Shown here piece by piece: positions 1 to 12,209 of a stretch of 12,209 nucleotides of DNA. Made by a program: the position numbers and the translations under genes. This DNA is from a virus (Duplodnaviria > Heunggongvirae > Uroviricota > Caudoviricetes). Numbering within the stretch: position 1 is the first letter of the stretch; each line of letters opens with the position of its first letter. Location of the stretch: the IMG/VR virus record IMGVR_UViG_2531839468_000024, one strand, 5' to 3'. The notes below the pieces were generated by a model. It did no database searches. It had not been told where the DNA came from and saw only the letters and a program-made list of their open reading frames with translations.

Positions 1-219
1 TGTTAATCCTACAATACCAAATAATGATAATACACCAATGACACTGACCGCGCCAAAGTATTTAAAGAAAATAGTTAATGATTCAACACTTATACCTTTC
101 CAATTTAAATAGCTTCTATAAGTATACAATTGCACAAAACACATGATAAAGAATAGGGGAAGGTATGACACTATAAATAGCGAAACTCTAGCACCTAAAT
201 GTAGTTTATTTACTCTCAT
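1..219 (-). CDS. Partial ORF (N-terminal fragment, continues past window start) encoding a strongly hydrophobic peptide; possible membrane protein
   Basis: Minus-strand frame open from ATG (reverse complement of 217-219) to position 1 with no stop; translation MRVNKLHLGARVSLFIVSYLPLFFIMCFVQLYTYRSYLNWKGISVESLTIFFKYFGAVSVIGVLSLFGIVGLT is hydrophobic; region is AT-rich. Not in the ORF track because it is unterminated in the window. Confidence 0.2.
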   Translation of the reverse strand, partial: MRVNKLHLGARVSLFIVSYLPLFFIMCFVQLYTYRSYLNWKGISVESLTIFFKYFGAVSVIGVLSLFGIVGLT

Positions 220-427
220 AACTACCCCACAGCCTACACGTCTAGTATTTTATGTTATTTCGAATAATTATGCATCAGATTACCATCCTACAATTGTGCA
301 TAAAACGAGCATTTTGCTGATTTTTCTGCGGATGCCTGAGACAGACAACCTCAAGCACCCGCAGCAATTTTACTTAACTCCCGCTACCTCGCCAATATGA
401 AATCAATAAGAAAGGTGCTCCATAAAA

Positions 428-1114
428 TCACTCCTTCTCTTCTTTATCGTAGTGGAGTTGACCAATTTTGATAAGAGGGCGTCCCTGAGATTTGCGGTGT
501 AGATTGGTATCGCGCAGAGAATACACACAGCCACAATATTCCTGCTGATAGAATTTTTCGCGCTTGCTGATTTCAATCATGCGGGACGAGCCGCCCTGCT
601 TGCGCCAGTTATAATCCCAGTACACCATGCCCGGATAATGCGCGACGGCTCGCCGCCCACAGTCGTTAACCTGCTGCATATTTTTCCAGCGTGAAATGCC
701 CAGTGAACTGCTGATCACACTGAAACCATTTTCAGCAGCGTACAGCGCTGTCCGCTCAAAACGCATGTCAAAACACATGGTACAACGGATCCCCCTCTCG
801 GGCTCCCATTCCATTCCTTTGGCACGTTCAAACCAGTTGTCTGTGTCGTAATCAGCATCAATAAATGGCACGCCGTGTTGTTCAGCAAAGCGAATATTCT
901 CATCCTTACGAATTAAATACTCTTTCTGAGGATGAATGTTCGGGTTGTAGAAAAAGATGGTATAGTCGATTCCCGAGGCCTGAAGCGCCTCCATCACTTC
1001 ACCGGAACATGGAGCACAGCAAGAGTGCAGTAGTAGTTTGTTTGCCCCGTTTGGGAGCTCCAATTTAGGCCGTTTGAAATCAGCAATAGTCATAAATATT
1101 TTTATTGGGGTCAT
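428..1114 (-). CDS. queH: DUF208 / QueH-like epoxyqueuosine reductase (Fe-S enzyme of queuosine tRNA modification)
   Basis: 228-aa ORF with [11 protein letters not shown] motif near the N-terminus plus later cysteines ([14 protein letters not shown]), as I recall for the QueH/DUF208 family. No clear Shine-Dalgarno for either candidate ATG (1114 or 1093). Confidence 0.55.
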
Positions 1115-1290
1115 GAAAATAGCACAGAGTGTAGCATCAGGGCTATCGGGAATAGATGTCTAAATCTGGTAATATCTGCTTTTGACGCAAAGCAGACAAC
1201 CACGCTAGCTCAATCCTGTGCCGTGAAAATGTCAATTCACATCTGAACTAATGCTCTTTAATCTAGTTACGTCTATAAATAACGAAAATT

Positions 1291-1689
1291 TCACTGATAA
1301 AATGCCAGTATGCGCTGCATAACTTCGCTCTTCCGGCACTCACAGCAAATTATGTTTTGGTGCCTGTCATAACGACGTATTTCTCCGTCAGGTAATGACC
1401 AGATAAGGTCCGGATCAACCACAGATGTTTTCTTCACCTTTGCCCTCGAGAGTTTTTTGCGGGCGTTTTGCCAGTCCTTACGAGCCTGTTCAGACGGGAA
1501 TAACCCGTAGCCAGAGTTATATACATCACCACTGGCAACCAGCTCTCTGGCGAGAACGCTCATCAGATATCTTGTCGCACCTGTCTTGGCTTCCAGTTGC
1601 CGTAACGTCTCGCGCCCACTCCGGCGTACTAGCTCAACAACCTGCCCCTTGATTTTTTCCCGCTCTTCTTGTGTAAAAACTTTTGCCAC
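1291..1689 (-). CDS. Hypothetical 132-aa protein downstream of the O-like replication gene
   Basis: GTG start preceded by a strong SD (AAGGGGGAC, reverse complement of 1692-1700); 40 bp downstream of the O-like stop, same strand. No family recognised. Confidence 0.5.
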   Translation of the reverse strand: MAKVFTQEEREKIKGQVVELVRRSGRETLRQLEAKTGATRYLMSVLARELVASGDVYNSGYGLFPSEQARKDWQNARKKLSRAKVKKTSVVDPDLIWSLPDGEIRRYDRHQNIICCECRKSEVMQRILAFYQ

Positions 1690-1729
1690 AAGTCCCCCTT
1701 AAAATTACCTCATGACCTGAAATCAAAAC

Positions 1730-2695
1730 TTATCCTCTGAAACCAGGCGGAATTTCTGTATCCGGTTCAGAAATATGATTAACACAACGCTGTACAGGTG
1801 AACGCCCCAGGCGGATGACCAGTTCGTCCCATTTTTCGCGGAGCTTTGACGGGCTCATGATGTTTTTTACCCAGAATGGATCCCGCTGTACCCGACCAAA
1901 CATTTCACAAATTTGTCTGTGGCTTCTGCCATCCAGCATCCGCATTGTGCGCACATCATTGGCCCAGACAGTCCAGTTAGGCTCTTTTGGTCGCATGATC
2001 TCGCCATCATCACTGGCGGCCTGTTCGTAGAGACCCACGATCCGCCCCCATATCCACTGCGCACACGCCAGATCCTCCTGGCTACCCCACTGGCGTTTTT
2101 TCGCACTAAACACAACTGCGCCAGGGTGCCGGATTAAAAAATCCTGTTCAGCCGTCTGCGGGTCCGGTTGCGAAGCTTCCGGACGAAAAGTGTTTTTATT
2201 CTCTGTAGTAATCTCTGTTGTATTCTCTGTAGGATCATCGGGCCATTTTGACCCGATGACATTGGGTCGTTTTGAACCAATGGAGCGTTTCATTTTGACC
2301 TCTTCCATCGTGTCATTTTGACCTGATGGAGCGGCGCATTTTGAACCGATGGATTCGCTCAATTTGCCATCATCTAAAAGCTCGCTCCCATAGTTAATCG
2401 TGTAGAAATTGGTCATATCGCGCTTTGATTTATTGAGCTTTTCACAACGCAAAAGCCCCAGCGTTTTCAGACTTGCAAACGCGCGCTTTAACGTTGACTC
2501 TGACCAGAATGGGAACTGTTCCAGCCATTGTTCCGTTGTGTTGTAAATCCAGCGAACACCATCACATTCCATGCCGGAATTGGTATCTCTCAACCAGTAA
2601 TGCAACTGCTGCAACACAATGGCTTCATTTAAGCCAATCTTCATCGCAAGCTGTGTGTTTATAACCAGTGGGCGTTCAGCAAAAAGAAGGCTCAT
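1730..2695 (-). CDS. Lambdoid replication initiator (O-like) with internal origin
   Basis: ORF track gives 1730-2749 (TTG start); I prefer the ATG at 2693-2695 (MSLLFAERPLVINTQLAMKIGLNEAIVLQQLHYWL...), giving a 321-aa product. The N-terminal region resembles replication-initiator DNA-binding domains; the iteron array lies inside the gene as in lambda O. Confidence 0.6.
   Translation of the reverse strand: MSLLFAERPLVINTQLAMKIGLNEAIVLQQLHYWLRDTNSGMECDGVRWIYNTTEQWLEQFPFWSESTLKRAFASLKTLGLLRCEKLNKSKRDMTNFYTINYGSELLDDGKLSESIGSKCAAPSGQNDTMEEVKMKRSIGSKRPNVIGSKWPDDPTENTTEITTENKNTFRPEASQPDPQTAEQDFLIRHPGAVVFSAKKRQWGSQEDLACAQWIWGRIVGLYEQAASDDGEIMRPKEPNWTVWANDVRTMRMLDGRSHRQICEMFGRVQRDPFWVKNIMSPSKLREKWDELVIRLGRSPVQRCVNHISEPDTEIPPGFRG
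2186..2233. repeat. AT-rich tract with three 11-12-bp direct repeats (ATTCTCTGTAG / AATCTCTGTTG / ATTCTCTGTAG) next to the iterons
   Basis: Repeats at 2198-2208, 2210-2220, 2222-2232. The tract lies downstream of the iterons in the coding direction of the O-like gene, matching the iteron-then-AT-rich layout of lambda ori. Confidence 0.5.
2244..2375. repeat. Iteron array: 5 good copies plus 1 degenerate copy of CATTTTGA(C/A)C-(N)-GATGG at 23-bp periodicity; putative replication origin
   Basis: Copies start at 2244, 2268, 2291, 2314, 2337 and (degenerate) 2360; read directly from the sequence. They encode a repetitive (S/V)IGSK linker in the O-like protein. Confidence 0.7.
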
Positions 2696-3197
2696 AATTC
2701 CATCCAGCTTTTTGTTGGTATTGCTGTCGATACGCAAGTTTGAAAGCAATTGCTTTTTCTATAAGTTCGTCAGTTTCACGATCCACTACGGCAGGATCAG
2801 CAAAAAGCAGTCCGGACTCCACCACATCGCCATATTCTTTGTTTAACCCGGCGATCATGTACGTGATGCTTTTTCCGTCACTAATTTCACGATGCAACCT
2901 GAAATCATTAATCCGGATAGCCTCCATAATTGCAGGCACTAGCGCCGTGAACTTTTCACGCTTATCCCTGGTGTCGATAGCCTTCCAGCGTTCGAATATC
3001 TTCACTCGATTAACGCCAAGCGCTCGCTGATCAACCGCGCCACCTTCATCTGTGACACGCTGAACATCGATGTTCGGGCGCTCTTTCAAAGCCCAGAATG
3101 CTTCAGTGATTAATATCGTCGCCTGCTCCTGTGTCATTCCTGGTCGACATATCCAGGCATCCAGAGCCTCACGAGCCTGTTCAGGAGTGATTTTCAT
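2676..3197 (-). CDS. Hypothetical 173-aa early protein at the CII position (possibly YdaT-like)
   Basis: ATG start at 3195-3197; overlaps the Cro-like gene stop by 17 nt and the O-like start by 20 nt, so it sits in a tightly packed rightward early operon. Family assignment is by position only. Confidence 0.45.
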   Translation of the reverse strand: MKITPEQAREALDAWICRPGMTQEQATILITEAFWALKERPNIDVQRVTDEGGAVDQRALGVNRVKIFERWKAIDTRDKREKFTALVPAIMEAIRINDFRLHREISDGKSITYMIAGLNKEYGDVVESGLLFADPAVVDRETDELIEKAIAFKLAYRQQYQQKAGWNYEPSFC

Positions 3198-3408
3198 TGT
3201 TCAACCGCCCCGCCCGCTTCGTCTTACGATATTCGTCATAAACCTTGGGATCATACAGAAGCTCGCCGCCAGATGCCTCCTGTAGACGCATCGCGCGACC
3301 TTCAGGAACCAGCTCTTGCCATTGAGAAACAGCAGATGGGTCAACGCCAGCAGCTTTCGCTACTTTGGCTTTCGTACCGTAAAAATTAATTACGTCTGAT
3401 TTAAACAT
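3181..3408 (-). CDS. dicC: Cro-like small DNA-binding protein (DicC/YdaS family)
   Basis: ORF track start at 3435 is TTG; the internal ATG at 3406-3408 has a strong SD (GGAGGT) and gives a 75-aa product, MFKSDVINFYGTKAKVAKAAGVDPSAVSQWQ..., with an HTH-like segment. Divergent from the repressor. Confidence 0.65.
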   Translation of the reverse strand: MFKSDVINFYGTKAKVAKAAGVDPSAVSQWQELVPEGRAMRLQEASGGELLYDPKVYDEYRKTKRAGRLNNENHS

Positions 3409-3485
3409 CGCACCTCCAATATTGAGTTTTCTCAATGCTAATCACTCAAGGAATCTCAAGTCAAGGGTTATTAAGATATCTAAAT
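3409..3485. promoter_or_regulatory. Divergent promoter/operator region between the Cro-like and repressor genes
   Basis: Inverted repeat ATTGAG-N4-CTCAAT at 3421-3436; further CTCAAG half-sites at 3445-3450 and 3455-3460. The core TTGAGTTTTCTCA recurs downstream of the repressor gene. Confidence 0.55.
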
Positions 3486-3893
3486 ATGAACGAGAAAACT
3501 TTAGGTCAACGCATTAGAGAAAGACGTAAGCAGGTAGGCTTAAGTCAAAACGGTTTAAGCAAAGCTGCTGGCGTATCTGGCTCATCAATTTCATTATGGG
3601 AAAGTGACCATACAGCCCCGCGCGGGCAAAATTTGCATCGCCTCGCCGAGGTATTGCAGTGTTCACCAACCTGGATACTGTTTGGCGACGAGGACAAAAC
3701 ACCAGCTCCCCCTGTTTCACTCGATAGTGCCTTAGACTTATCGGAAGATGAGTTAGAGATGCTGCGTTTGTATCGCGCACTTCCTAAATCAGAGCAACAA
3801 GCACAACTCAGCGAACTCCGCGCCCGCGTTGAGAATTTTAATCGCCTGTTCACCGAGCTATTAGAGGCTCGCAAACGCAACAAGCATCAATAA
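3486..3893 (+). CDS. dicA: DicA-like HTH (XRE-family) prophage repressor
   Basis: ATG at 3486 gives 135 aa. HTH near the N-terminus (QRIRERRKQVGLSQNGLSKAAGVSGSSISLWE) and a conserved VLQCSPTWILFGDEDK segment that I recall from Qin DicA. Weak or absent SD, consistent with a cI-like leaderless or weakly initiated message. Confidence 0.75.
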   Translation: MNEKTLGQRIRERRKQVGLSQNGLSKAAGVSGSSISLWESDHTAPRGQNLHRLAEVLQCSPTWILFGDEDKTPAPPVSLDSALDLSEDELEMLRLYRALPKSEQQAQLSELRARVENFNRLFTELLEARKRNKHQ

Positions 3894-3954
3894 TCATCCC
3901 TTCACAAAATTTTAAAGCCTTACATTTCAATGTATTGGCTTTATCTTGCGCCAA

Positions 3955-4016
3955 TGCTTGAGTTTTCTCATCAAAAAGCCTTGACGAAAAATAATGAGAA
4001 AACTAAATTACCTCCA
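3955..4016 (+). promoter_or_regulatory. Putative repressor-controlled promoter of the early-left (dicB-type) operon with two operator-like sites
   Basis: TTGAGTTTTCTCA at 3958-3970, identical to 3422-3434; inverted variant TGAGAAAACTAA at 3995-4006; candidate -35 TTGACG (3981-3986) and -10 TAAATT (4004-4009) with a 17-bp spacer. Confidence 0.5.
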
Positions 4017-4615: not shown

Positions 4616-4696
4616 TCCCTGCGTCCTCTAACCCGAGTTGTCAGGTTGACCATACGCTTAAGTGACAACCCCGCTGCAACGCCCTCTGTTATCAAT

Positions 4697-4754
4697 TTTC
4701 TGGTGACGTTTGGCGGTATCAGTTTTACTCCGTGACTGCTCTGCCGCCGTTTTT
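4697..4754 (+). ncRNA. dicF: DicF-like small regulatory RNA (ftsZ-targeting sRNA of dicB operons)
   Basis: TTTCTGGTGACGTTTGGCGGTATCAGTTTTACTCCGTGACTGCTCTGCCGCCG followed by a T-run (4750-4754); this matches DicF as I recall it, and it sits in a roughly 300-bp non-coding gap just upstream of the DicB-like ORF. No covariance-model search was possible. Confidence 0.65.
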
Positions 4755-4923
4755 AAAGTGAATTTTGTGATGCGGTGAATGCGGCTAAGCGCACGCGGAA
4801 CAGTTAAAACCAAAAACAGTGTTATGGGTAGATTCTCTGTATCCGGCGTTAATTGTTAACTGGTTAACGTCACCTGGAGGCACCAGGCACTGCATCACAA
4901 AATTCATTGTTGAGGACGCGATA

Positions 4924-5112
4924 ATGAAAACGTTATTACCAAACGTTAATACGTCTGAAGGTTGTTTTGAAATTGGTGTCACTATCAGTAACCCTGTATT
5001 TACTGAAGATGCCATTAACAAGAGAAAACAAGAACGGGAGCTATTAAATAAAATATGCATTGTTTCAATGCTGGCTCGTTTACGTCTGATGCCAAAAGGA
5101 TGTGCACAATGA
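4924..5112 (+). CDS. dicB: DicB-like cell-division inhibitor (62 aa)
   Basis: ATG at 4924 with SD GAGGA (4911-4915); 62-aa product MKTLLPNVNTSEGCFEIGVTISNPVF...; size, position after the DicF-like RNA and sequence match my recollection of Qin DicB. The 97-aa ORF in the track is an upstream over-extension. Confidence 0.75.
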   Translation: MKTLLPNVNTSEGCFEIGVTISNPVFTEDAINKRKQERELLNKICIVSMLARLRLMPKGCAQ

Positions 5113-5300
5113 ATTCAGCATTTGCGCTTGTTCTGACAGTTTTTCTTGTTTCCGGAGAGCCAGTTGATATTGCAGTCAGTGTTCACAGGACAATGCAGGA
5201 GTGTATGACTGCAGCAACCGAACAGAAAATTCCCGGTAACTGTTACCCGGTCGATAAAGTTATTCACCAGGATAATATCGAAATCCCGGCAAGTCTTTAA
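5109..5300 (+). CDS. ydfD: YdfD-like small membrane (lysis-type) protein (63 aa)
   Basis: ATG at 5109 overlaps the dicB stop (ATGA coupling, 5109-5112); N-terminal hydrophobic segment SAFALVLTVFLVSG; 63 aa as for Qin YdfD. Confidence 0.65.
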   Translation: MNSAFALVLTVFLVSGEPVDIAVSVHRTMQECMTAATEQKIPGNCYPVDKVIHQDNIEIPASL

Positions 5301-5393
5301 AACAGTTCCGTAATAAATATCCGGTTTCATTCTTATATGCCAGCAATGGCAGGGATTTGTTCATCCTTAAATCTGTCATGAGGTTAAAACAAA

Positions 5394-7864
5394 ATGAGTA
5401 AAGTCTTTATTTGCGCCGCTATTCCTGACGAACTGGCAACAAGGGAAGAAGGCGCTGTGGCTGTAGCCACAGCCATTGAAGCTGGCGACGAACGCCGTGC
5501 TCGAGCAAAATTTCACTGGCAGTTCCTGGAACATTATCCGGCTGCTCAGGACTGCGCTTATAAATTTATTGTCTGCGAGGATAAACCTGGCATACCCCGC
5601 CCTGCCCTCGATTCATGGGATGCTGAATATATGCAGGAAAACCGCTGGGATGAGGAGTCTGCTTCTTTTGTCCCGGTTGAGACTGAATCCGATCCGATGA
5701 ACGTCACTTTTGACAAGCTGGCCCCTGAAGTACAGAACGCTGTCATGGTTAAGTTCGACACATGTGAAAACATCACCGTTGATATGGTTATTAGCGCACA
5801 GGAATTGTTGCAGGAAGACATGGCAACATTCGACGGACATATCGTTGAAGCGTTGATGAAAATGCCAGAAGTTAACGCCATGTATCCGGAGCTTAAGTTG
5901 CACGCCATTGGGTGGGTTAAGCATAAATGTATTCCTGGTGCTAAATGGCCCGAAATTCAGGCAGAGATGCGCATCTGGAAAAAACGTCGCGAAGGTGAAC
6001 GCAAGGAAACCGGAAAATACACGTCTGTTGTTGATCTCGCCCGCGCCAGAGCCAATCAACAGTACACTGAAAATTCAACAGGAAAAATCAGCCCGGTCAT
6101 TGCTGCCATTCATCGCGAATACAAGCAGACATGGAAAACACTGGATGACGAACTGGCCTACGCTCTCTGGCCTGGTGATGTGGATGCCGGAAACATTGAC
6201 GGCAGCATCCATCGCTGGGCAAAAAAGAAGTTATCGACAACGACCGCGAAGACTGGAAGCGTATCTCGGCATCAATGCGCAAACAGCCTGATGCCCTTCG
6301 CTACGACCGCCAGACTATTTTTGGCCTTGTCCGTGAGCGTCCGATCGACATTCACAAAGATCCCATAGCACTGAACAAATATATCTGCGAATACCTGACG
6401 ACAAAGGGCGTGTTTGAGAGTGAAGAAACAGACCTGGGCACTGTTGATGTTCTCCAGTCATCAGAAACACAAACTGATGCAGTGGAAACTGAGGTATCTG
6501 ATATCCCAAAAAATGAAACCGCGCCGGAAGCTGAACCATCTGTAGAGCGTGAGGGGCCGTTCTATTTCCTCTTCGCAGATAAGGACGGAGAAAAATACGG
6601 TCGCGCAAACAAACTTTCTGGTCTGGATAAGGCACTGGCTGCTGGCGCCACTGAAATCACAAAAGAAGAATATTTTGCCCGAAAAAATGGCACATACACG
6701 GGCTTACCGCAAAATGTAGATACCGCTGAAGATTCAGAACAACCAGAGCCGATAAAAGTTACCGCTGACGAAGTAAACAAAATTATGCAGGCAGCCAATA
6801 TCAGCCAGCCTGACGCCGATAAGTTGCTTGCTGCATCACGTGGTGAATTTGTTGAAGGGATTAGTGACCCGAATGATCCGAAATGGGTTAAGGGGATCCA
6901 GACCCGCGATTCTGTGAACCAGAACCAGCATGAATCGGAACGGAACTACCAAAAAGCGGAACAAAACAGCACAAATGCGTTACAAAACGAGCCAGAAACG
7001 AAACAGCCTGAACCAGTGGCGCAACAGGAAGTGGAAAAAGTCTGCACCGCCTGCGGTCAGACCGGCGGCGGCAACTGCCCTGATTGTGGCGCGGTGATGG
7101 GCGACGCAACATACCAAGAAACATTCGATGAAGAGTATCAGGTTGAAGTTCAGGAAGATGATCCGGAGGAAATGGAAGGCGCTGAACATCCACACAAGGA
7201 GAACACTGGCGGCAATCAGCATCACAATAGCGATAATGAAACTGGCGAGACGGCAGATCACTCAATTAAGGTGAACGGTCATCACGAAATCACATCCACC
7301 AGCAGGACGTGTGACCATCTAATGATCGACCTTGAAACCATGGGAAAAAATCCTGATGCCCCGATCATCTCAATAGGTGCAATATTTTTCGATCCGCAAA
7401 CCGGAGATATGGGACCGGAATTTAGTAAGACTATCGATCTGGAAACTGCTGGCGGAGTCATTGATCGGGACACCATTAAATGGTGGCTTAAGCAATCACG
7501 CGAAGCGCAATCTGCCATTATGACCGATGAAATCCCGTTAGATGATGCACTGTTACAATTGCGGGAATTTATCGACGAAAACTCCGGTGAATTTTTTGTT
7601 CAGGTTTGGGGAAATGGAGCCAACTTCGACAACACGATTTTGCGCCGTTCATACGAACGGCAGGGGATCCCCTGCCCGTGGCGTTACTACAACGATCGCG
7701 ATGTACGCACAATCGTTGAGCTGGGGAAAGCCATAGACTTCGATGCCAGAACGGCTATTCCATTCGAAGGTGAGCGCCATAATGCACTTGATGACGCCCG
7801 TTACCAGGCAAAATACGTTTCAGTTATCTGGCAAAAACTGATCCCGAGTCAGGCTGATTCTTAA
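5394..7864 (+). pseudogene. YdfE-like large early protein (about 820 aa if fused): unknown N-terminal region, acidic linker, C4 zinc-ribbon-like motif and C-terminal DEDDh (DnaQ-like) 3'-5' exonuclease domain; reading frame broken near 6221-6227
   Basis: Two overlapping ORFs (5394-6368 and 6275-7864); the second frame is open from 6200, and one added base in the A6 run (6221-6226) joins them. Exo motifs: DLET (about 7327-7338), NGANFDNTIL, HNALDDARYQAKY. CTACGQTGGGNCPDCG at about 7045-7092. Confidence 0.65.
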
Positions 7865-7875
7865 TGTTCAACTGT

Positions 7876-7907
7876 CGCCGGTTGTGACTGGTATTCTGCA
7901 ACCGGCG
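7876..7907 (+). other. Stem-loop (9-bp stem CGCCGGTTG / CAACCGGCG, 14-nt loop) just after the exonuclease stop
   Basis: Perfect inverted repeat 7876-7884 / 7899-7907; no following T-tract, so not a canonical intrinsic terminator. Confidence 0.3.
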
Positions 7908-7936
7908 CTCGTCTGATGTAAGAGATAAAGAAATCG

Positions 7937-8065
7937 ATGAGCGAAGTAATCATGATTGTCTCTCCCGGCAAATGGGTATCCGAAGAGCAGTTAATTGCGC
8001 TGAAAGGAATAAAAAAAGGTACGTTAAAAAAGGCCCGGGAAAAATCGTTTATGGAAGGAAGGGAA
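7937..8065 (+). pseudogene. Excisionase-like small gene, 5' fragment (interrupted by IS66-family insertion)
   Basis: ORF reads MSEVIMIVSPGKWVSEEQLIALKGIKKGTLKKAREKSFMEGRE up to the IS boundary at 8066; the same frame resumes after the IS (10773 onward) to a stop at 10893-10895. Confidence 0.5.
8058..8065. repeat. Target-site duplication, left copy (GAAGGGAA)
   Basis: Identical 8-mer directly flanks both IS ends (8058-8065 and 10765-10772). Confidence 0.85.
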
Positions 8066-8148
8066 GTAACCGGCTCATTTAAACCGTCTGGTCTGTTTCC
8101 TCCGGCTCTACAAAAATAATGTCCATCATTTTTAATGGACACTATCGT

Positions 8149-8331
8149 ATGAAACACCGGACCTGGATCACTGAAGCTTTACGTCTTCACTTTGAAGAAC
8201 ATTTACCCCGGGTTGTGGCCGGGCGTCGCCTGAGTGTACCAAAATCAACAGTTTGTAGTATGTTCGTGCGCTTTCGGAGAGCTGGCCTTTCGGTGGCCTT
8301 TGCCCGCAGGCATGTCGGAGCAGGAACTTGA
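8149..8331 (+). CDS. IS-internal upstream ORF of unknown role (HTH-like basic peptide)
   Basis: ATG at 8149 (the track begins at 8119); MKHRTWITEALRLHFEEHLPRVVAGRRLSVPKSTV...; its stop overlaps an ATG at 8331 (TGATG). May be an accessory ORF or chance ORF within the IS left arm. Confidence 0.25.
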   Translation: MKHRTWITEALRLHFEEHLPRVVAGRRLSVPKSTVCSMFVRFRRAGLSVAFARRHVGAGT

Positions 8332-8461
8332 TGCCTGCCTATACGGACAATTTTTCCACGGTACCAGTCGTACGTCCTGAAAGCACCGTTATATCCGAAG
8401 CCCCCGAGGTAAAAAACGTCCCCGGCGGCCCAACTTCCCTTATGAGTTTAAAATCGCCTTA

Positions 8462-8797
8462 GTGGAGCAGTCACTACAGCCCGGAGCCTGTGTGGCGCAG
8501 ATCGCCCGGGAAAACGGAATCAACGATAACCTGCTCTTCAACTGGCGCCATCAATACCGGAAAGGTGGCCTGCTGCCTTCCGGAGAAAATATGCCGGCAC
8601 TGCTTCCCGTGACGTTAACGCCGGAGCCGGATAATAAAATCCCGGCCCCCGCACAGGAACCAGAGCAGATAAATACACCGTCCGACAGTCTGTGTTGTGA
8701 GCTGGTTCTGCCGGCCGGAACTCTCAGGCTTAAAGGTAAACTGACGCCGGCGTTATTACAGACACTTATCCGCGAAATAAAAGGGAGCAGCCACTGA
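8462..8797 (+). CDS. tnpA: IS66-family TnpA (orf1); conserved coding appears to extend upstream of the first in-frame start
   Basis: The first standard start in frame is GTG at 8462, but the same frame is open from 8381 and encodes KKRPRRPNFPYEFKIALVEQSLQPGACVAQIARENGINDNLLFNWRHQYRKG, matching the RRR-x-S-x-EFK...LF-WR-Q pattern I recall for IS66 TnpA. Confidence 0.6.
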   Translation: MEQSLQPGACVAQIARENGINDNLLFNWRHQYRKGGLLPSGENMPALLPVTLTPEPDNKIPAPAQEPEQINTPSDSLCCELVLPAGTLRLKGKLTPALLQTLIREIKGSSH

Positions 8798-9144
8798 TGA
8801 TATCTCTCCCTGCAGGTTCGCGTATCTGGCTGGTTGCAGGTATCACCGATATGCGAAATGGCTTTAACGGCCTGGCATCAAAAGTTCAGAACGTCCTGAA
8901 GGATGACCCGTTCTCCGGACACCTGTTCATCTTCCGCGGACGCCGGGGTGACCAGATAAAAGTGTTGTGGGCTGACAGTGACGGACTGTGCCTCTTCACC
9001 AAACGCCTGGAGCGGGGCCGCTTCGTCTGGCCAGTCACCCGTGACGGCAAGGTGCACCTTACTCCGGCTCAGTTATCCATGCTTCTTGAAGGTATCAACT
9101 GGAAGCACCCGAAACGAACGGAACGCGCTGGAATCCGCATATAA
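8797..9144 (+). CDS. tnpB: IS66-family TnpB (orf2)
   Basis: 115 aa, MISLPAGSRIWLVAGITDMRNGFNGLA...GHLFIFRGRRGDQIKVLWADSDGLCLFTKRLERGRF, the characteristic IS66 orf2 sequence; start overlaps the tnpA stop. Confidence 0.85.
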   Translation: MISLPAGSRIWLVAGITDMRNGFNGLASKVQNVLKDDPFSGHLFIFRGRRGDQIKVLWADSDGLCLFTKRLERGRFVWPVTRDGKVHLTPAQLSMLLEGINWKHPKRTERAGIRI

Positions 9145-9163
9145 CCCGTTGTAAAGTGAGGAT

Positions 9164-10734
9164 ATGGACACCTCACTTGCTCATGAGAACGCCCGCCTGC
9201 GGGCACTGTTGCAGACGCAACAGGACACCATCCGCCAGATGGCTGAATACAACCGCCTGCTCTCACAGCGGGTGGCGGCTTATGCTTCCGAAATCAACCG
9301 GCTGAAGGCGCTGGTTGCGAAACTGCAACGTATGCAGTTCGGTAAAAGCTCAGAAAAACTTCGTGCAAAAACCGAACGGCAGATACAGGAAGCACAGGAG
9401 CGAATCAGCGCACTTCAGGAAGAAATGGCGGAAACGCTGGGTGAGCAATATGACCCGGTACTGCCATCCGCCCTGCGCCAGTCTTCAGCCCGTAAACCGT
9501 TACCGGCCTCACTTCCCCGTGAAACCCGGGTTATCCGGCCGGAAGAGGAATGCTGTCCTGCCTGTGGTGGTGAACTCAGTTCTCTGGGATGTGATGTGTC
9601 AGAGCAACTGGAGCTTATCAGCAGCGCCTTTAAGGTTATCGAAACACAACGTCCGAAACAGGCCTGTTGCCGGTGCGACCATATCGTGCAGGCACCAGTA
9701 CCTTCAAAACCCATTGCACGCAGTTATGCCGGAGCGGGGCTTCTGGCCCATGTTGTCACCGGGAAATATGCAGACCATCTGCCGTTATACCGCCAGTCAG
9801 AAATATACCGTCGTCAGGGAGTGGAGCTGAGCCGTGCCACACTGGGGCGCTGGACAGGTGCTGTTGCTGAACTGCTGGAGCCGCTGTATGACGTCCTGCG
9901 CCAGTATGTGCTGATGCCCGGTAAAGTCCATGCTGATGATATCCCCGTCCCGGTCCAGGAGCCGGGCAGCGGTAAAACCCGGACAGCCCGGCTGTGGGTC
10001 TACGTCCGTGATGACCGTAACGCCGGTTCACAGATGCCCCCGGCGGTCTGGTTCGCGTACAGTCCGGACCGGAAAGGTATCCATCCACAAAATCACCTGG
10101 CCGGTTACAGCGGTGTGCTTCAGGCCGATGCTTACGGTGGTTACCGGGCGTTATACGAATCCGGCAGAATAACGGAAGCCGCGTGTATGGCTCATGCCCG
10201 GAGAAAATCCACGATGTGCATGCAAGAGCGCCCACCTACATCACCACGGAAGCCCTGCAGCGTATCGGTGAACTGTATGCCATCGAGGCAGAGGTCCGGG
10301 GCTGTTCAGCAGAACAGCGTCTGGCGGCAAGAAAAGCCAGAGCCGCGCCACTGATGCAGTCACTGTATGACTGGATACAGCAACAGATGAAAACACTGTC
10401 GCGTCACTCAGATACGGCAAAAGCGTTCGCATACCTGCTGAAACAGTGGGATGCACTGAACGTGTACTGCAGTAATGGCTGGGTGGAAATCGACAACAAC
10501 ATCGCAGAGAACGCCTTACGGGGAGTGGCCGTAGGCCGGAAAAACTGGATGTTCGCGGGTTCCGACAGCGGTGGTGAACATGCGGCGGTGTTGTACTCGC
10601 TGATCGGCACATGCCGTCTGAACAATGTGGAGCCAGAAAAGTGGCTGCGTTACGTCATTGAACATATCCAGGACTGGCCGGCAAACCGGGTACGCGATCT
10701 GTTGCCCTGGAAAGTTGATCTGAGCTCTCAGTAA
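9164..10734 (+). pseudogene. tnpC: IS66-family TnpC transposase, frameshifted (two ORFs, 9164-10354 and 10183-10734)
   Basis: N-terminal coiled-coil/leucine-zipper-like region, CPACGG zinc-finger motif, then ...[11 protein letters not shown] in one frame continuing as IHDVHA... in the next; one added base near 10208 would restore a single reading frame of about 520 aa. Confidence 0.8.
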
Positions 10735-10764
10735 ATATCAATACGGTTCTGACGAGTCGCTTAC

Positions 10765-10772
10765 GAAGGGAA
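10765..10772. repeat. Target-site duplication, right copy (GAAGGGAA)
   Basis: Identical to 8058-8065; directly abuts the IS right end. Confidence 0.85.
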
Positions 10773-10895
10773 TATAAGCATGTCGCTCATGACGGTATGC
10801 CATGGGATAACAGTCCATGCTTTTACAACCTGGAAGAAATTGATCGCTGGATTGAGCGCCAGGCATCAGCGAGACCAAGACGTCATCTTACTTGA
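10765..10895 (+). pseudogene. Excisionase-like small gene, 3' fragment
   Basis: Frame open across the IS right boundary: ...YKHVAHDGMPWDNSPCFYNLEEIDRWIERQASARPRRHLT stop. The C-terminal EEIDRWIE resembles the W-x-EID-x-W tail of AlpA/Xis-type proteins. Joining the fragments with a single copy of the duplication gives an 83-aa protein. Confidence 0.5.
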
Positions 10896-10929
10896 CTAAA
10901 AGCCACACTAACTAATGAGAGAAGTTGAA

Positions 10930-12209
10930 ATGAAATATCCGACAGGCGTGGAAAACCATGGAGGGAAATTACGTATCTGGTTTGTTTATAAAGGCGTAAG
11001 AGTCAGGGAAAATCTGGGGGTTCCTGACACAGCAAAAAACAGGCACGTTGCAGGTGAACTACGCTCCTCTGTTTGTTACGCAATAAAAACTGGTGTTTTC
11101 GACTATGCAAAACAGTTTCCCTCCTCACGCAATCTGGAAAAATTTGGTGAGGCCCGACAAGATTTAACCATAAAAGAACTGGCTGAAAAATTTCTGGCAC
11201 TGAAAGAAACTGAAGTCGCCAAAACATCACTCAACACATACCGTGCCGTCATCAAAAATATCCTGAGCATAATCGGTGAAAAAAATCTTGCCTCATCGAT
11301 TAATAAAGAAAAATTACTGGAGGTTCGTAAAGAGCTACTGACTGGATACCAGATCCCCAAAAGTAACTATATTGTTACACAACCAGGGAGATCGGCTGTA
11401 ACTGTAAATAATTACATGACAAATCTTAACGCCGTGTTCCAGTTTGGTGTTGATAACGGTTACCTGCCAGATAATCCGTTTAAGGGGATCTCGCCATTAA
11501 AGGAATCAAGAACCATTCCGGATCCTCTTTCGCGGGAGGAATTTATCCGTCTTATCGATGCGTGCAGAAATCAGCAAGCAAAAAATATATGGTGTGTTTC
11601 TGTTTATACTGGCGTTCGCCCTGGTGAGCTGTGTGCACTTGGATGGGAGGACATAGATCTGAAAAATGGAACAATGATGATCAGGAGAAATTTAGCAAAA
11701 GACCGTTTCACGGTACCAAAAACACAGGCGGGAACCAATCGGGTCATTCATCTTATTAAGCCAGCAATCGACGCTCTCCGGAGTCAGATGACATTAACGA
11801 GACTGAGCAAAGAGCATATCATTGATGTTCACCTCAGAGAGTATGGCAGAACAGAAAAACAAAAATGCACCTTTGTTTTTCAACCTGAAGTGTCAGCGAG
11901 AGTAAAAATTATGGTGACCATTTTACCGTTGACTCAATAAGGCAGATGTGGGACGCAGCGATAAAACGTGCCGGACTCCGCCATCGAAAATCATATCAGT
12001 CGAGACATACTTATGCCTGCTGGTCGCTGACAGCTGGTGCTAACCCGGCATTTATAGCAAACCAGATGGGCCATGCAGATGCGCAAATGGTATTTCAGGT
12101 ATACGGAAAATGGATGTCTGAAAACAATAATGCACAGGTAGCTTTGTTAAATACACAGTTAAGCGAGTTTGCCCCAACCATGCCCCATAACGAAGCAATG
12201 AAAAATTAA
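10930..12209 (+). pseudogene. int: Lambda-family tyrosine integrase, frame broken at an A5 run (11904-11908)
   Basis: Two ORFs (10915-11940 and 11946-12209); the downstream frame is open from 11889 and carries the catalytic HxxR (SRHTYA), second His (GHAD) and Tyr (VYGKW) region; the N-terminus PTGVE...LRIWFVYKGVRVRE is typical of lambdoid integrases. Confidence 0.8.

What the first reader, a model, noticed from the sequence alone, without database searches (positions are those of the whole stretch)
6221..11908. Four reading-frame breaks that one added base in or beside a short A/T run would each repair
The exonuclease gene (A6 at 6221-6226), IS66 tnpA upstream region (A6 at 8411-8416), tnpC (AAAAT at 10204-10208) and integrase (A5 at 11904-11908) each change frame in a way that a single inserted nucleotide would correct. 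A consistent -1 pattern at homopolymers is typical of sequencing or assembly under-calling, but it is also how prophage genes commonly decay. Other A6/A7 runs in the window (for example 8025-8031 and 7375-7380) are in frame, so the effect is not uniform.
Basis: seen in the sequence. Interest (0 to 1): 0.4.

Follow-up and report, generated by a model that had tools for sequence, protein, structure and literature searches.

The report
One-base A-run losses breaking prophage genes
Four genes of a dead prophage and its resident insertion sequence in a pig-pathogenic E. coli are each broken by the loss of one A from a short A run; this is ordinary gene decay, three of the four breaks also occur in independently sequenced genomes, and one cannot be told from a sequencing error.

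Summary
Against intact orthologues, the window lacks one A at 6221-6226 (exonuclease), 8411-8416 (ISCro1 tnpA), 10204-10207 (tnpC) and 11904-11908 (integrase). Adding one A restores an 823-aa exonuclease, a 523-aa transposase and a 426-aa integrase.

The window is contig AFDT01000031.1 of porcine ETEC '3030-1': a Qin-like cryptic prophage beside rspB, with ISCro1 inserted in xis.

- **Exonuclease A6:** also in 5 complete RefSeq genomes and several independent run assemblies, one identical over 1.7 kb.
- **tnpA A6 and tnpC A4:** both recur in other genomes.
- **Integrase A5 and a five-change patch in tnpA:** found only in this assembly.

The adjacent 9.7 kb of chromosomal genes in the same contig has as many A/T runs and no indel. 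General homopolymer under-calling is therefore unlikely. The same integrase is broken at other A runs in many genomes.

Verdict: known, ordinary slipped-strand pseudogenisation. Only the integrase break and the tnpA patch remain possible artefacts. Low interest.

The parts
5394..7864 (+). Prophage exonuclease gene (YdfE_N/YdfE_C region plus a C-terminal Rv2179c-like 3'-5' exonuclease domain). It is split into a 324-aa ORF (5394-6368) and a -1-frame remainder (ORF from 6275 to 7864).
   Evidence: ORF list. Annotated as an intact 823-aa '3'-5' exonuclease' in L001, L002 and L040. Pfam Rv2179c-like E = 1.3e-67 on the C-terminal fragment. Repair gives 823 aa.
6221..6226 (+). A6 run, one A shorter than the A7 of intact alleles. 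It is the frameshift site of the exonuclease. In the 0 frame it reads GC[A AAA AAG], a canonical -1 slippery heptamer.
   Evidence: and direct reading. The same allele is in 5 complete genomes and on 39 contigs.
7937..8065 (+). 5' 43 codons of the excisionase gene xis (DUF1233), cut off by the IS insertion.
   Evidence: Maps to xis of L001. Pfam DUF1233 profile positions 1-39 of 70.
8058..8065 (.). Left copy of the 8-bp target-site duplication, GAAGGGAA.
   Evidence: An 8-bp overlap of the flanking alignments to L001.
8066..10764 (+). ISCro1 (IS66 family), 2699 bp, carrying tnpA, tnpB and tnpC.
   Evidence: 99.6-99.8% identical to annotated ISCro1 copies.
8119..8797 (+). tnpA, broken by three indels (net +1). 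It also carries window-specific substitutions at 8341, 8407 and 8585.
8292..8293 (+). GG where all other copies have a single G (+1).
   Evidence: The 70-aa product is found only in 3030-1.
8351..8355 (+). T5 where all other copies have T4 (+1).
8411..8416 (+). A6 where the reference ISCro1 has A7 (-1) in tnpA.
   Evidence: A6 is also in L003, L004 (same 8233A/8476A haplotype), L041 and L042.
8797..9144 (+). tnpB, intact (115 aa).
   Evidence: PF05717 TnpB_IS66.
9164..10734 (+). tnpC (DDE transposase), split into a 396-aa ORF (9164-10354) and a C-terminal remainder.
   Evidence: Repair gives 523 aa, identical to the L002 transposase.
10204..10207 (+). A4 where the reference has A5 (-1). It is the frameshift site of tnpC.
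   Evidence: A4 is also in L026-L034 and in 3 complete genomes.
10765..10772 (.). Right copy of the target-site duplication, GAAGGGAA.
10773..10895 (+). 3' 41 codons of xis, displaced by the IS.
   Evidence: Alignment to L001 9924-10075. TGA at 10893-10895 read directly.
10930..12209 (+). Tyrosine integrase gene, split into an N-terminal ORF (ending at 11940) and an 87-aa C-terminal ORF (11946-12209). The break falls inside the catalytic domain.
   Evidence: The Pfam Phage_integrase profile is split into positions 4-86 and 114-165 of 172.
11904..11908 (+). A5 where relatives have A6 (-1). It is the frameshift site of int and is private to this assembly.

Best explanation
The window is the integrase-proximal end of a Qin-like cryptic lambdoid prophage next to rspB in porcine ETEC '3030-1'. 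An ISCro1 element has inserted into xis, so the prophage can no longer excise and its recombination genes are under no selection.

The four frame breaks are one-base contractions of short A runs. Replication slippage (slipped-strand mispairing) produces exactly this kind of mutation. Each break turns a dispensable mobile-element gene (exonuclease, IS tnpA, IS tnpC, integrase) into a pseudogene.

**Shown:**
- Intact orthologues carry one more A at each site.
- The exonuclease, tnpA and tnpC alleles exist in independently sequenced genomes.
- Indels are absent from the flanking core genes of the same contig.

**Inferred:**
- The slippage mechanism.
- That tnpC A4 and integrase A5 are real in this particular strain.

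My estimate that each change is a real mutation in strain 3030-1:

| Change | Estimate |
|---|---|
| exonuclease A6 | about 0.95 |
| tnpA A6 | about 0.85 |
| tnpC A4 | about 0.65 |
| integrase A5 | about 0.5 |
| tnpA +G/+T patch | about 0.4 |
For: - **Closest relative.** E. coli A1 differs from the contig over 19.2 kb (IS excluded) by 11 substitutions and exactly two indels, the -A at 6221 and the -A at 11904. A1 has intact exonuclease, xis and integrase and no IS.
- **Exonuclease A6.** The 131-bp stretch is 100% identical in 5 complete RefSeq genomes. The 324-aa frameshifted product is on 39 contigs. Run assembly ERR4561346 is identical to the window over 5394-7116. PGAP marks the gene 'frameshifted' in strain E4.
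- **tnpA A6.** It occurs on the same 8233A/8476A IS haplotype in two complete genomes. It also occurs in pEC581_3 and E7476, where PGAP marks tnpA 'frameshifted'.
- **tnpC A4.** The 396-aa product is on 22 contigs, including identical run-assembly contigs seen in 17 and in 20 or more samples.
- **Control.** The next 9731 bp of core genes in the same contig has 97 substitutions and 0 indels against strain E4, with 111 A/T runs of 4 or more against 106 in 4633-12209. Adding window 1-3312 to the control, changed runs are 5 of 106 against 0 of 164, Fisher p = 0.009.
- **Parallel decay.** The same integrase is broken by one-base changes at other A runs (reference positions 105, 350, 926, 932, 974) in other genomes, including complete ones. 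Its 87-aa C-terminal ORF is called on 1000 or more contigs. Two run assemblies have further -A losses in the exonuclease, at 6508 and 6682.
- **Relaxed selection.** xis is split by the IS, with an 8-bp duplication.
Against: - **Integrase A5 is unique to this assembly.** It is in 0 of 3048 places in complete genomes, in no other contig of the 15-billion-protein collection, and in no metagenome or representative-genome contig. The repaired integrase sequence exists exactly on 132 contigs, so the break is either very recent or an error.
- **tnpC A4 sits on a different IS haplotype here.** The window has 8233A/8476A; the other A4 copies have 8233G/8476G. The shared allele is therefore recurrence, not descent, and does not prove it is real in this strain.
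- **The tnpA patch looks like local poor consensus.** Five changes unique to this assembly (+G 8292, T>A 8341, +T 8351, T>A 8407, A>G 8585) lie within 294 bp of a 2699-bp IS. The rough chance of such clustering is 7e-4. None of 4376 copies is more than 97.4% identical across this stretch. A badly assembled multi-copy repeat would look like this.
- **No reads could be examined.** The sequencing platform of this 2011-era draft is not given by any tool result.
Confidence: 0.72

Rival explanations
1. All four breaks, plus the two extra bases in tnpA, are homopolymer miscalls of the draft assembly. This would be platform under- and over-calling, or a poor consensus. The real genome would then have intact genes.
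For: - Every indel lies in or beside a mononucleotide run.
- The integrase A5 and the tnpA +G/+T changes are seen in no other sequence.
- The repaired exonuclease and integrase proteins match, residue for residue, proteins found on 138 and 132 contigs.
- Indels are over-represented against the closest genome: 2 indels to 11 substitutions over 19.2 kb.
- Four of the six indels lie in a multi-copy IS, where consensus quality is typically worst.
Against: - The exonuclease A6 allele exists with an identical flanking haplotype in independent assemblies and in complete genomes.
- tnpA A6 and tnpC A4 are natural alleles elsewhere.
- There is no indel in 9.7 kb of adjacent core sequence, nor in window 1-3312, despite 164 A/T runs of 4 or more.
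- The other ten runs of 6 or more in the affected segment have the expected length.
Confidence: 0.1
2. A mixed case. The exonuclease and tnpA A6 changes, and probably tnpC A4, are true mutations. The integrase A5 and the tnpA patch (+G, +T, three substitutions) are local assembly or consensus errors.
For: The private changes are exactly those with no independent support. The tnpA changes cluster within 294 bp of a repeat element. The rest of the unique sequence is almost identical to strain A1: 1 substitution in 11.2 kb to the right of the IS.
Against: The contig's unique regions look accurate, so an isolated error in the single-copy integrase would be the only one in about 11 kb. The integrase is demonstrably prone to real A-run frameshifts in other lineages.
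Confidence: 0.35
3. The exonuclease break is a working -1 recoding site. Ribosomes slip on A_AAA_AAG, so the gene yields both a 324-aa YdfE-like protein and some full-length 823-aa exonuclease.
For: - The 0 frame reads GCA AAA AAG, so the heptamer A_AAA_AAG (6221-6227) is in register.
- The downstream ORF is in the -1 frame, and a -1 slip would recreate the wild-type A-K-K-E-V sequence exactly.
- From established knowledge of dnaX and IS911, A_AAA_AAG is the most slip-prone heptamer in E. coli.
- The A6 allele occurs on at least three diverged haplotypes.
Against: - Only 5 complete genomes carry A6, out of 5759 matching places in 3572 genomes. The rest are at most 99.2% identical, and all those examined are in frame.
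- There is no significant downstream structure (z = -0.73).
- No correctly spaced Shine-Dalgarno-like stimulator is evident by eye.
- Some A6 lineages have further frameshifts downstream, at 6508 and 6682. That is decay, not maintenance.
Confidence: 0.04

Closest known systems
Frameshift pseudogenes made by slipped-strand mispairing at mononucleotide runs in cryptic prophages and IS elements (for example E. coli K-12 Qin: intQ and ydfE pseudogenes)
   Same: - Same prophage type and chromosomal site (dicB, DicF, ydfD ... int beside rspB).
- One-base contractions of A runs in int, the exonuclease and IS genes.
- The same integrase is frameshifted at other A runs in many genomes.
   Different: The particular combination is specific to this assembly: IS in xis, exonuclease A6, integrase A5 and a doubly broken ISCro1. 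The integrase A5 allele has not been seen elsewhere.
Homopolymer-length errors of pyrosequencing, semiconductor or long-read assemblies
   Same: One-base length changes confined to mononucleotide runs. Two other 'complete' genomes examined here carry ISCro1 copies full of one-base deletions (L036 BEN2908 and L043 B-2207). These are either badly decayed copies or errors of this type.
   Different: Here the changes are few, are absent from 13 kb of control sequence with more runs, and three of the four recur in independent assemblies.
Programmed -1 ribosomal frameshifting on A_AAA_AAG (dnaX, IS3-family transposases such as IS911 and IS1203)
   Same: The exonuclease A6 allele puts A_AAA_AAG in the 0 frame with the rest of the gene in the -1 frame. 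An IS3-family 'programmed frameshift' is annotated in a related locus (L002).
   Different: No stimulatory structure. The configuration is a rare derived allele rather than the conserved state. IS66-family elements are not known to use frameshifting (my own knowledge, not tested here).
ISCro1 (IS66 family)
   Same: 99.6-99.8% identical over 2699 bp, with tnpA-tnpB-tnpC order and an 8-bp target duplication.
   Different: tnpA and tnpC are both frameshifted, so this copy cannot make its own transposase. tnpA carries a patch of changes seen in none of 4376 copies.

Membership tests
Slipped-strand (homopolymer) frameshift pseudogene | Intact orthologues differ by exactly one repeat unit at the break, and repair restores the full-length ORF. 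| tested here: met
   True for the exonuclease, tnpC and the integrase. tnpA needs three edits.
Slipped-strand (homopolymer) frameshift pseudogene | The mutant allele is reproducible in independent sequencing. | tested here: inconclusive
   Met for exonuclease A6, tnpA A6 and tnpC A4. Not met for integrase A5 or the tnpA +G/+T changes. No second sequencing of this strain is available.
Slipped-strand (homopolymer) frameshift pseudogene | The affected genes are dispensable or under relaxed selection. | tested here: met
   All breaks lie in prophage or IS genes. xis is already destroyed by the IS. Core genes nearby are untouched.
Sequencing or assembly homopolymer artefact | Length errors are spread over homopolymers regardless of gene class. 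| tested here: not met
   0 of 164 A/T runs changed in 13 kb of control sequence against 5 of 106 in the mobile-element segment, Fisher p = 0.009.
Sequencing or assembly homopolymer artefact | Reads disagree with the consensus at the site, or support it only weakly. | not testable with these tools
   No reads or quality values for AFDT01 are accessible.
Programmed -1 ribosomal frameshift site | Slippery heptamer X_XXY_YYZ in the 0 frame, with the downstream ORF in the -1 frame. | tested here: met
   Exonuclease: A_AAA_AAG at 6221-6227, with the ORF from 6275 in the -1 frame. tnpC and the integrase have no canonical heptamer (read).
Programmed -1 ribosomal frameshift site | The frameshift arrangement is conserved among homologues. 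| tested here: not met
   Only 5 complete genomes carry A6, out of 5759 matching places. Relatives examined are in frame. Some A6 lineages carry additional breaks.
Programmed -1 ribosomal frameshift site | A stimulatory downstream structure. | tested here: not met
   6228-6300 folds at -17.6 kcal/mol, z = -0.73 against shuffles.
IS66 family (ISCro1) | tnpA-tnpB-tnpC organisation, DDE_Tnp_IS66 transposase and an 8-bp target duplication. | tested here: met

The most novel reading that the evidence does not exclude
The recurrent exonuclease A6 allele could be a functional recoding switch rather than a dead gene. Contraction of A7 to A6 creates an in-register A_AAA_AAG heptamer. Ribosomal -1 slippage on it would yield mostly a 324-aa YdfE-type protein plus a small fraction of exact wild-type 823-aa exonuclease. 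The allele is seen on at least three diverged prophage haplotypes.
Probability: 0.04. Interest if true: 0.4.

Novelty: already known. Interest (0 to 1): 0.1.

Why it matters
It matters mainly for annotation. These ORF fragments should be labelled as pseudogenes of an exonuclease, IS66 tnpA and tnpC, and an integrase, not as separate small proteins. Users of this draft should not treat the integrase break or the tnpA patch as established.

Biologically, it is one more example of a cryptic prophage being locked in place. An IS sits in xis, and the neighbouring recombination genes then erode at A runs. The data also show that a few A runs in this prophage family and in ISCro1 lose a base repeatedly in independent lineages. 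No new mechanism is implied.

Tried and rejected
- **Independent sequencing of the same lineage.** I looked up the xis/IS junction ORF. It is unique to this assembly, so it gives no check of the integrase or the tnpA patch.
- **A donor for the tnpA patch (gene conversion).** I scanned species-representative genomes and metagenome contigs for an exact 21-mer spanning two of the changes, and found no hits. Megablast against 4376 tnpA copies gave at best 97.4% identity.
- **The integrase A5 allele elsewhere.** No hits in complete genomes, metagenomes or representative genomes.
- **The sequencing platform.** Literature searches for '3030-1' and 'AFDT' found only PMC4358887. That paper links AFDT01 to porcine ETEC strain 3030-2 but does not describe the sequencing.
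- **Programmed frameshifting.** Considered and rejected as the main explanation: there is no stimulatory structure and the allele is rare.
- **Phase variation (contingency locus).** Considered and rejected. The runs are only 4-7 bases, the variant alleles are rare, and the genes are mobile-element housekeeping genes.
- **Single origin or recurrence of exonuclease A6.** A6 lies on haplotypes as far from each other (8-21 differences) as from the A7 haplotype L002 (8-17). With only two non-A6 references, recurrence and recombination cannot be separated.
Full report
**What the window is.** Exact look-up of the broken ORF products identifies the source as contig AFDT01000031.1 of Escherichia coli '3030-1' (GCA_000225085.2). 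The window is contig positions 2-12210. PMC4358887 uses AFDT01 accessions for porcine enterotoxigenic strain 3030-2.

Comparison with annotated complete genomes shows the integrase-proximal end of a Qin-like lambdoid prophage next to rspB. The gene order is queH, DUF977, O-like, ydaT, cro/dicC, repressor, DUF1391, DicF RNA (4698-4749), dicB, ydfD, a 3'-5' exonuclease, xis and int.

An ISCro1 element (IS66 family, 2699 bp) lies at 8066-10764. It is flanked by the 8-bp duplication GAAGGGAA (8058-8065 and 10765-10772) and splits xis after codon 43.

**Checking the observation.** blastn against two relatives, and a run-length scan over 34 loci, show the window is one A short at each of the four named sites:

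| Site | Gene | Window | Relatives |
|---|---|---|---|
| 6221-6226 | exonuclease | A6 | A7 (or A6T) |
| 8411-8416 | tnpA | A6 | A7 |
| 10204-10207 | tnpC | A4 | A5 |
| 11904-11908 | integrase | A5 | A6 |

Adding one A in silico gives the following:
- an 823-aa exonuclease, 818/824 alignment positions identical to a relative;
- a 523-aa transposase identical to the reference;
- a 426-aa integrase, 423/427 identical.

One added A still leaves several stops. The window also has an extra G (8292-8293) and T5 instead of T4 (8351-8355). Only all three edits restore the 225-aa protein.

The association with runs is far beyond chance (P about 1.6e-5). Both real slippage and homopolymer miscalls predict that association, so it does not separate them.

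**Are the breaks real? Site-by-site evidence.**

- **Exonuclease A6.** The 324-aa frameshifted product occurs on 39 contigs. The places read include two large NCBI assemblies and at least seven run assemblies. One run assembly (ERR4561346) is identical to the window over 5394-7116. Five complete RefSeq genomes are 100% identical over the 131 bp around the site, and PGAP calls the gene 'frameshifted' in strain E4. This break is real.
- **tnpA A6.** The window's IS shares the haplotype 8233A / A6 / 8476A with copies in two complete genomes. A6 also occurs on the other IS haplotype in plasmid pEC581_3 and in strain E7476, both annotated 'frameshifted'. It is very probably real.
- **tnpC A4.** The 396-aa product is on 22 contigs, including run-assembly contigs seen in 17 and in 20 or more samples. 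Three complete genomes match exactly, although two of those IS copies are riddled with one-base deletions and are weak witnesses. The other A4 copies carry 8233G/8476G, not the window's haplotype. The allele is therefore natural and recurrent, but its presence in this strain is not independently shown.
- **Integrase A5.** It is absent from all 3048 matching places in complete genomes. Its N-terminal fragment is unique among about 15 billion proteins. The exact 26-mer is absent from metagenome and species-representative contigs. Unresolved.
- **The tnpA patch.** Five changes lie within 294 bp of the IS and are unique to this assembly: +G 8292, T>A 8341, +T 8351, T>A 8407 and A>G 8585. Apart from changes shared with other copies, the rest of the IS is clean. 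The clustering (rough P of 7e-4), in a multi-copy element, is what a local consensus problem would look like. It could also be a real mutational cluster in an already dead gene.

**Is there general under-calling?** The next 9731 bp of the same contig (rspB to ynfF) has 97 substitutions and no indel against strain E4. It also has no indel against two other genomes over 6.9 kb. It contains 111 A/T runs of 4 or more, against 106 in window 4633-12209. Window 1-3312 has no one-base indel against a 99.4% relative. Changed runs are 5 of 106 in the mobile-element segment against 0 of 164 in the controls (Fisher p = 0.009).

Against the closest complete genome, E. coli A1, the 19.2 kb outside the IS shows 11 substitutions and exactly two indels, the exonuclease and integrase -A. 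The assembly is therefore accurate in unique sequence, and systematic homopolymer under-calling is not supported. One or two isolated errors cannot be excluded.

**Context that favours decay.**
- The same integrase gene is frameshifted in other genomes by one-base changes in other A runs. These are reference positions 105, 350, 926, 932 and 974, the 932 allele being found in complete genomes.
- Its 87-aa C-terminal ORF is called on at least 1000 contigs.
- Two run assemblies that share exonuclease A6 have lost a further A from the A6 runs at 6508 or 6682.
- In the window, xis is already destroyed by the IS. The integrase and exonuclease are therefore useless to the element and free to erode.
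- The integrase break separates the two halves of the catalytic domain, so no active recombinase can be made.

**Mechanism.** The best-supported reading is replication slippage on short A runs in genes under relaxed selection, following or accompanying IS insertion into xis. This is inferred from the pattern; no experiment was done.

One small extra point. The exonuclease A6 allele reads GC[A AAA AAG] in the 0 frame, with the rest of the gene in the -1 frame. Occasional ribosomal -1 slippage would therefore regenerate the exact wild-type protein. There is no stimulatory structure (z = -0.73), the allele is rare, and some carriers decay further. I therefore treat this as leaky suppression at most, not a programmed device.

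**Comparison with what is known, and verdict.** This is the familiar erosion of a cryptic prophage and of IS copies by homopolymer frameshifts, as in the intQ and ydfE pseudogenes of K-12 Qin (my own knowledge). It is not a member of the programmed-frameshift class. The heptamer is present, but conservation and a stimulator were tested and not found.

Of its two alternative readings, decay is favoured. An artefact remains possible only for the integrase site and the tnpA patch. Nothing here is novel, and interest is low.

Noticed in passing
window 8058-8065, 8066-10764, 10765-10772; L001 about 10072-12770; L002 about 11364-14064: ISCro1 has inserted independently at three different points of the small xis-int region of this prophage in different genomes. 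The window has it in xis codon 43, L001 just upstream of the int start, and L002 inside int. This may be a local insertion hot spot.
   Followed up: partly
window 8292-8585: Five changes unique to this assembly cluster in 294 bp of tnpA: +G, T>A, +T, T>A and A>G. None occurs in 4376 other ISCro1-like tnpA copies or in the metagenome and representative-genome scans. The cause is unknown: local consensus error or a real mutational cluster.
   Followed up: partly
window 10930-12209; loci L015-L023, L035: The same integrase is frameshifted at at least five other A runs in other E. coli genomes. The commonest seen here is A5 to A4, 43 nt upstream of the window's site. The 87-aa C-terminal ORF is called on 1000 or more contigs.
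   Followed up: yes
window 6508-6513 and 6682-6687; loci L011, L010: Two run assemblies that share the exonuclease A6 allele have each lost another A from a further A6 run in the same gene. This is stepwise decay.
   Followed up: partly
window 4698-4749: DicF small RNA (Rfam RF00039, 72.5 bits) upstream of dicB, as expected for a Qin-type prophage.
   Followed up: no
L040 (NZ_CP029328.1, E. coli A1 from an Australian echidna): Nearly identical to the porcine ETEC contig over 19.2 kb (11 substitutions), with intact exonuclease, xis and integrase and no IS at this site. It is a useful 'before' state for this locus.
   Followed up: yes
L036 (BEN2908) and L043 (B-2207), ISCro1 copies: These IS copies in 'complete' genomes carry many one-base deletions throughout. 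They are either badly decayed copies or homopolymer or long-read errors. Their agreement with the window at the tnpC site is weak evidence.
   Followed up: no
source record: GenBank names the strain '3030-1', but PMC4358887 uses AFDT01 accessions for strain '3030-2'.
   Followed up: no
window 3312-4003 and about 3978, about 4011, about 1138: The immunity region differs from some relatives (no match to L001, 97% to L002). There are small intergenic indels relative to relatives (a 4-5-bp gap near 1138, single bases near 3978 and 4011). None breaks a reading frame.
   Followed up: partly
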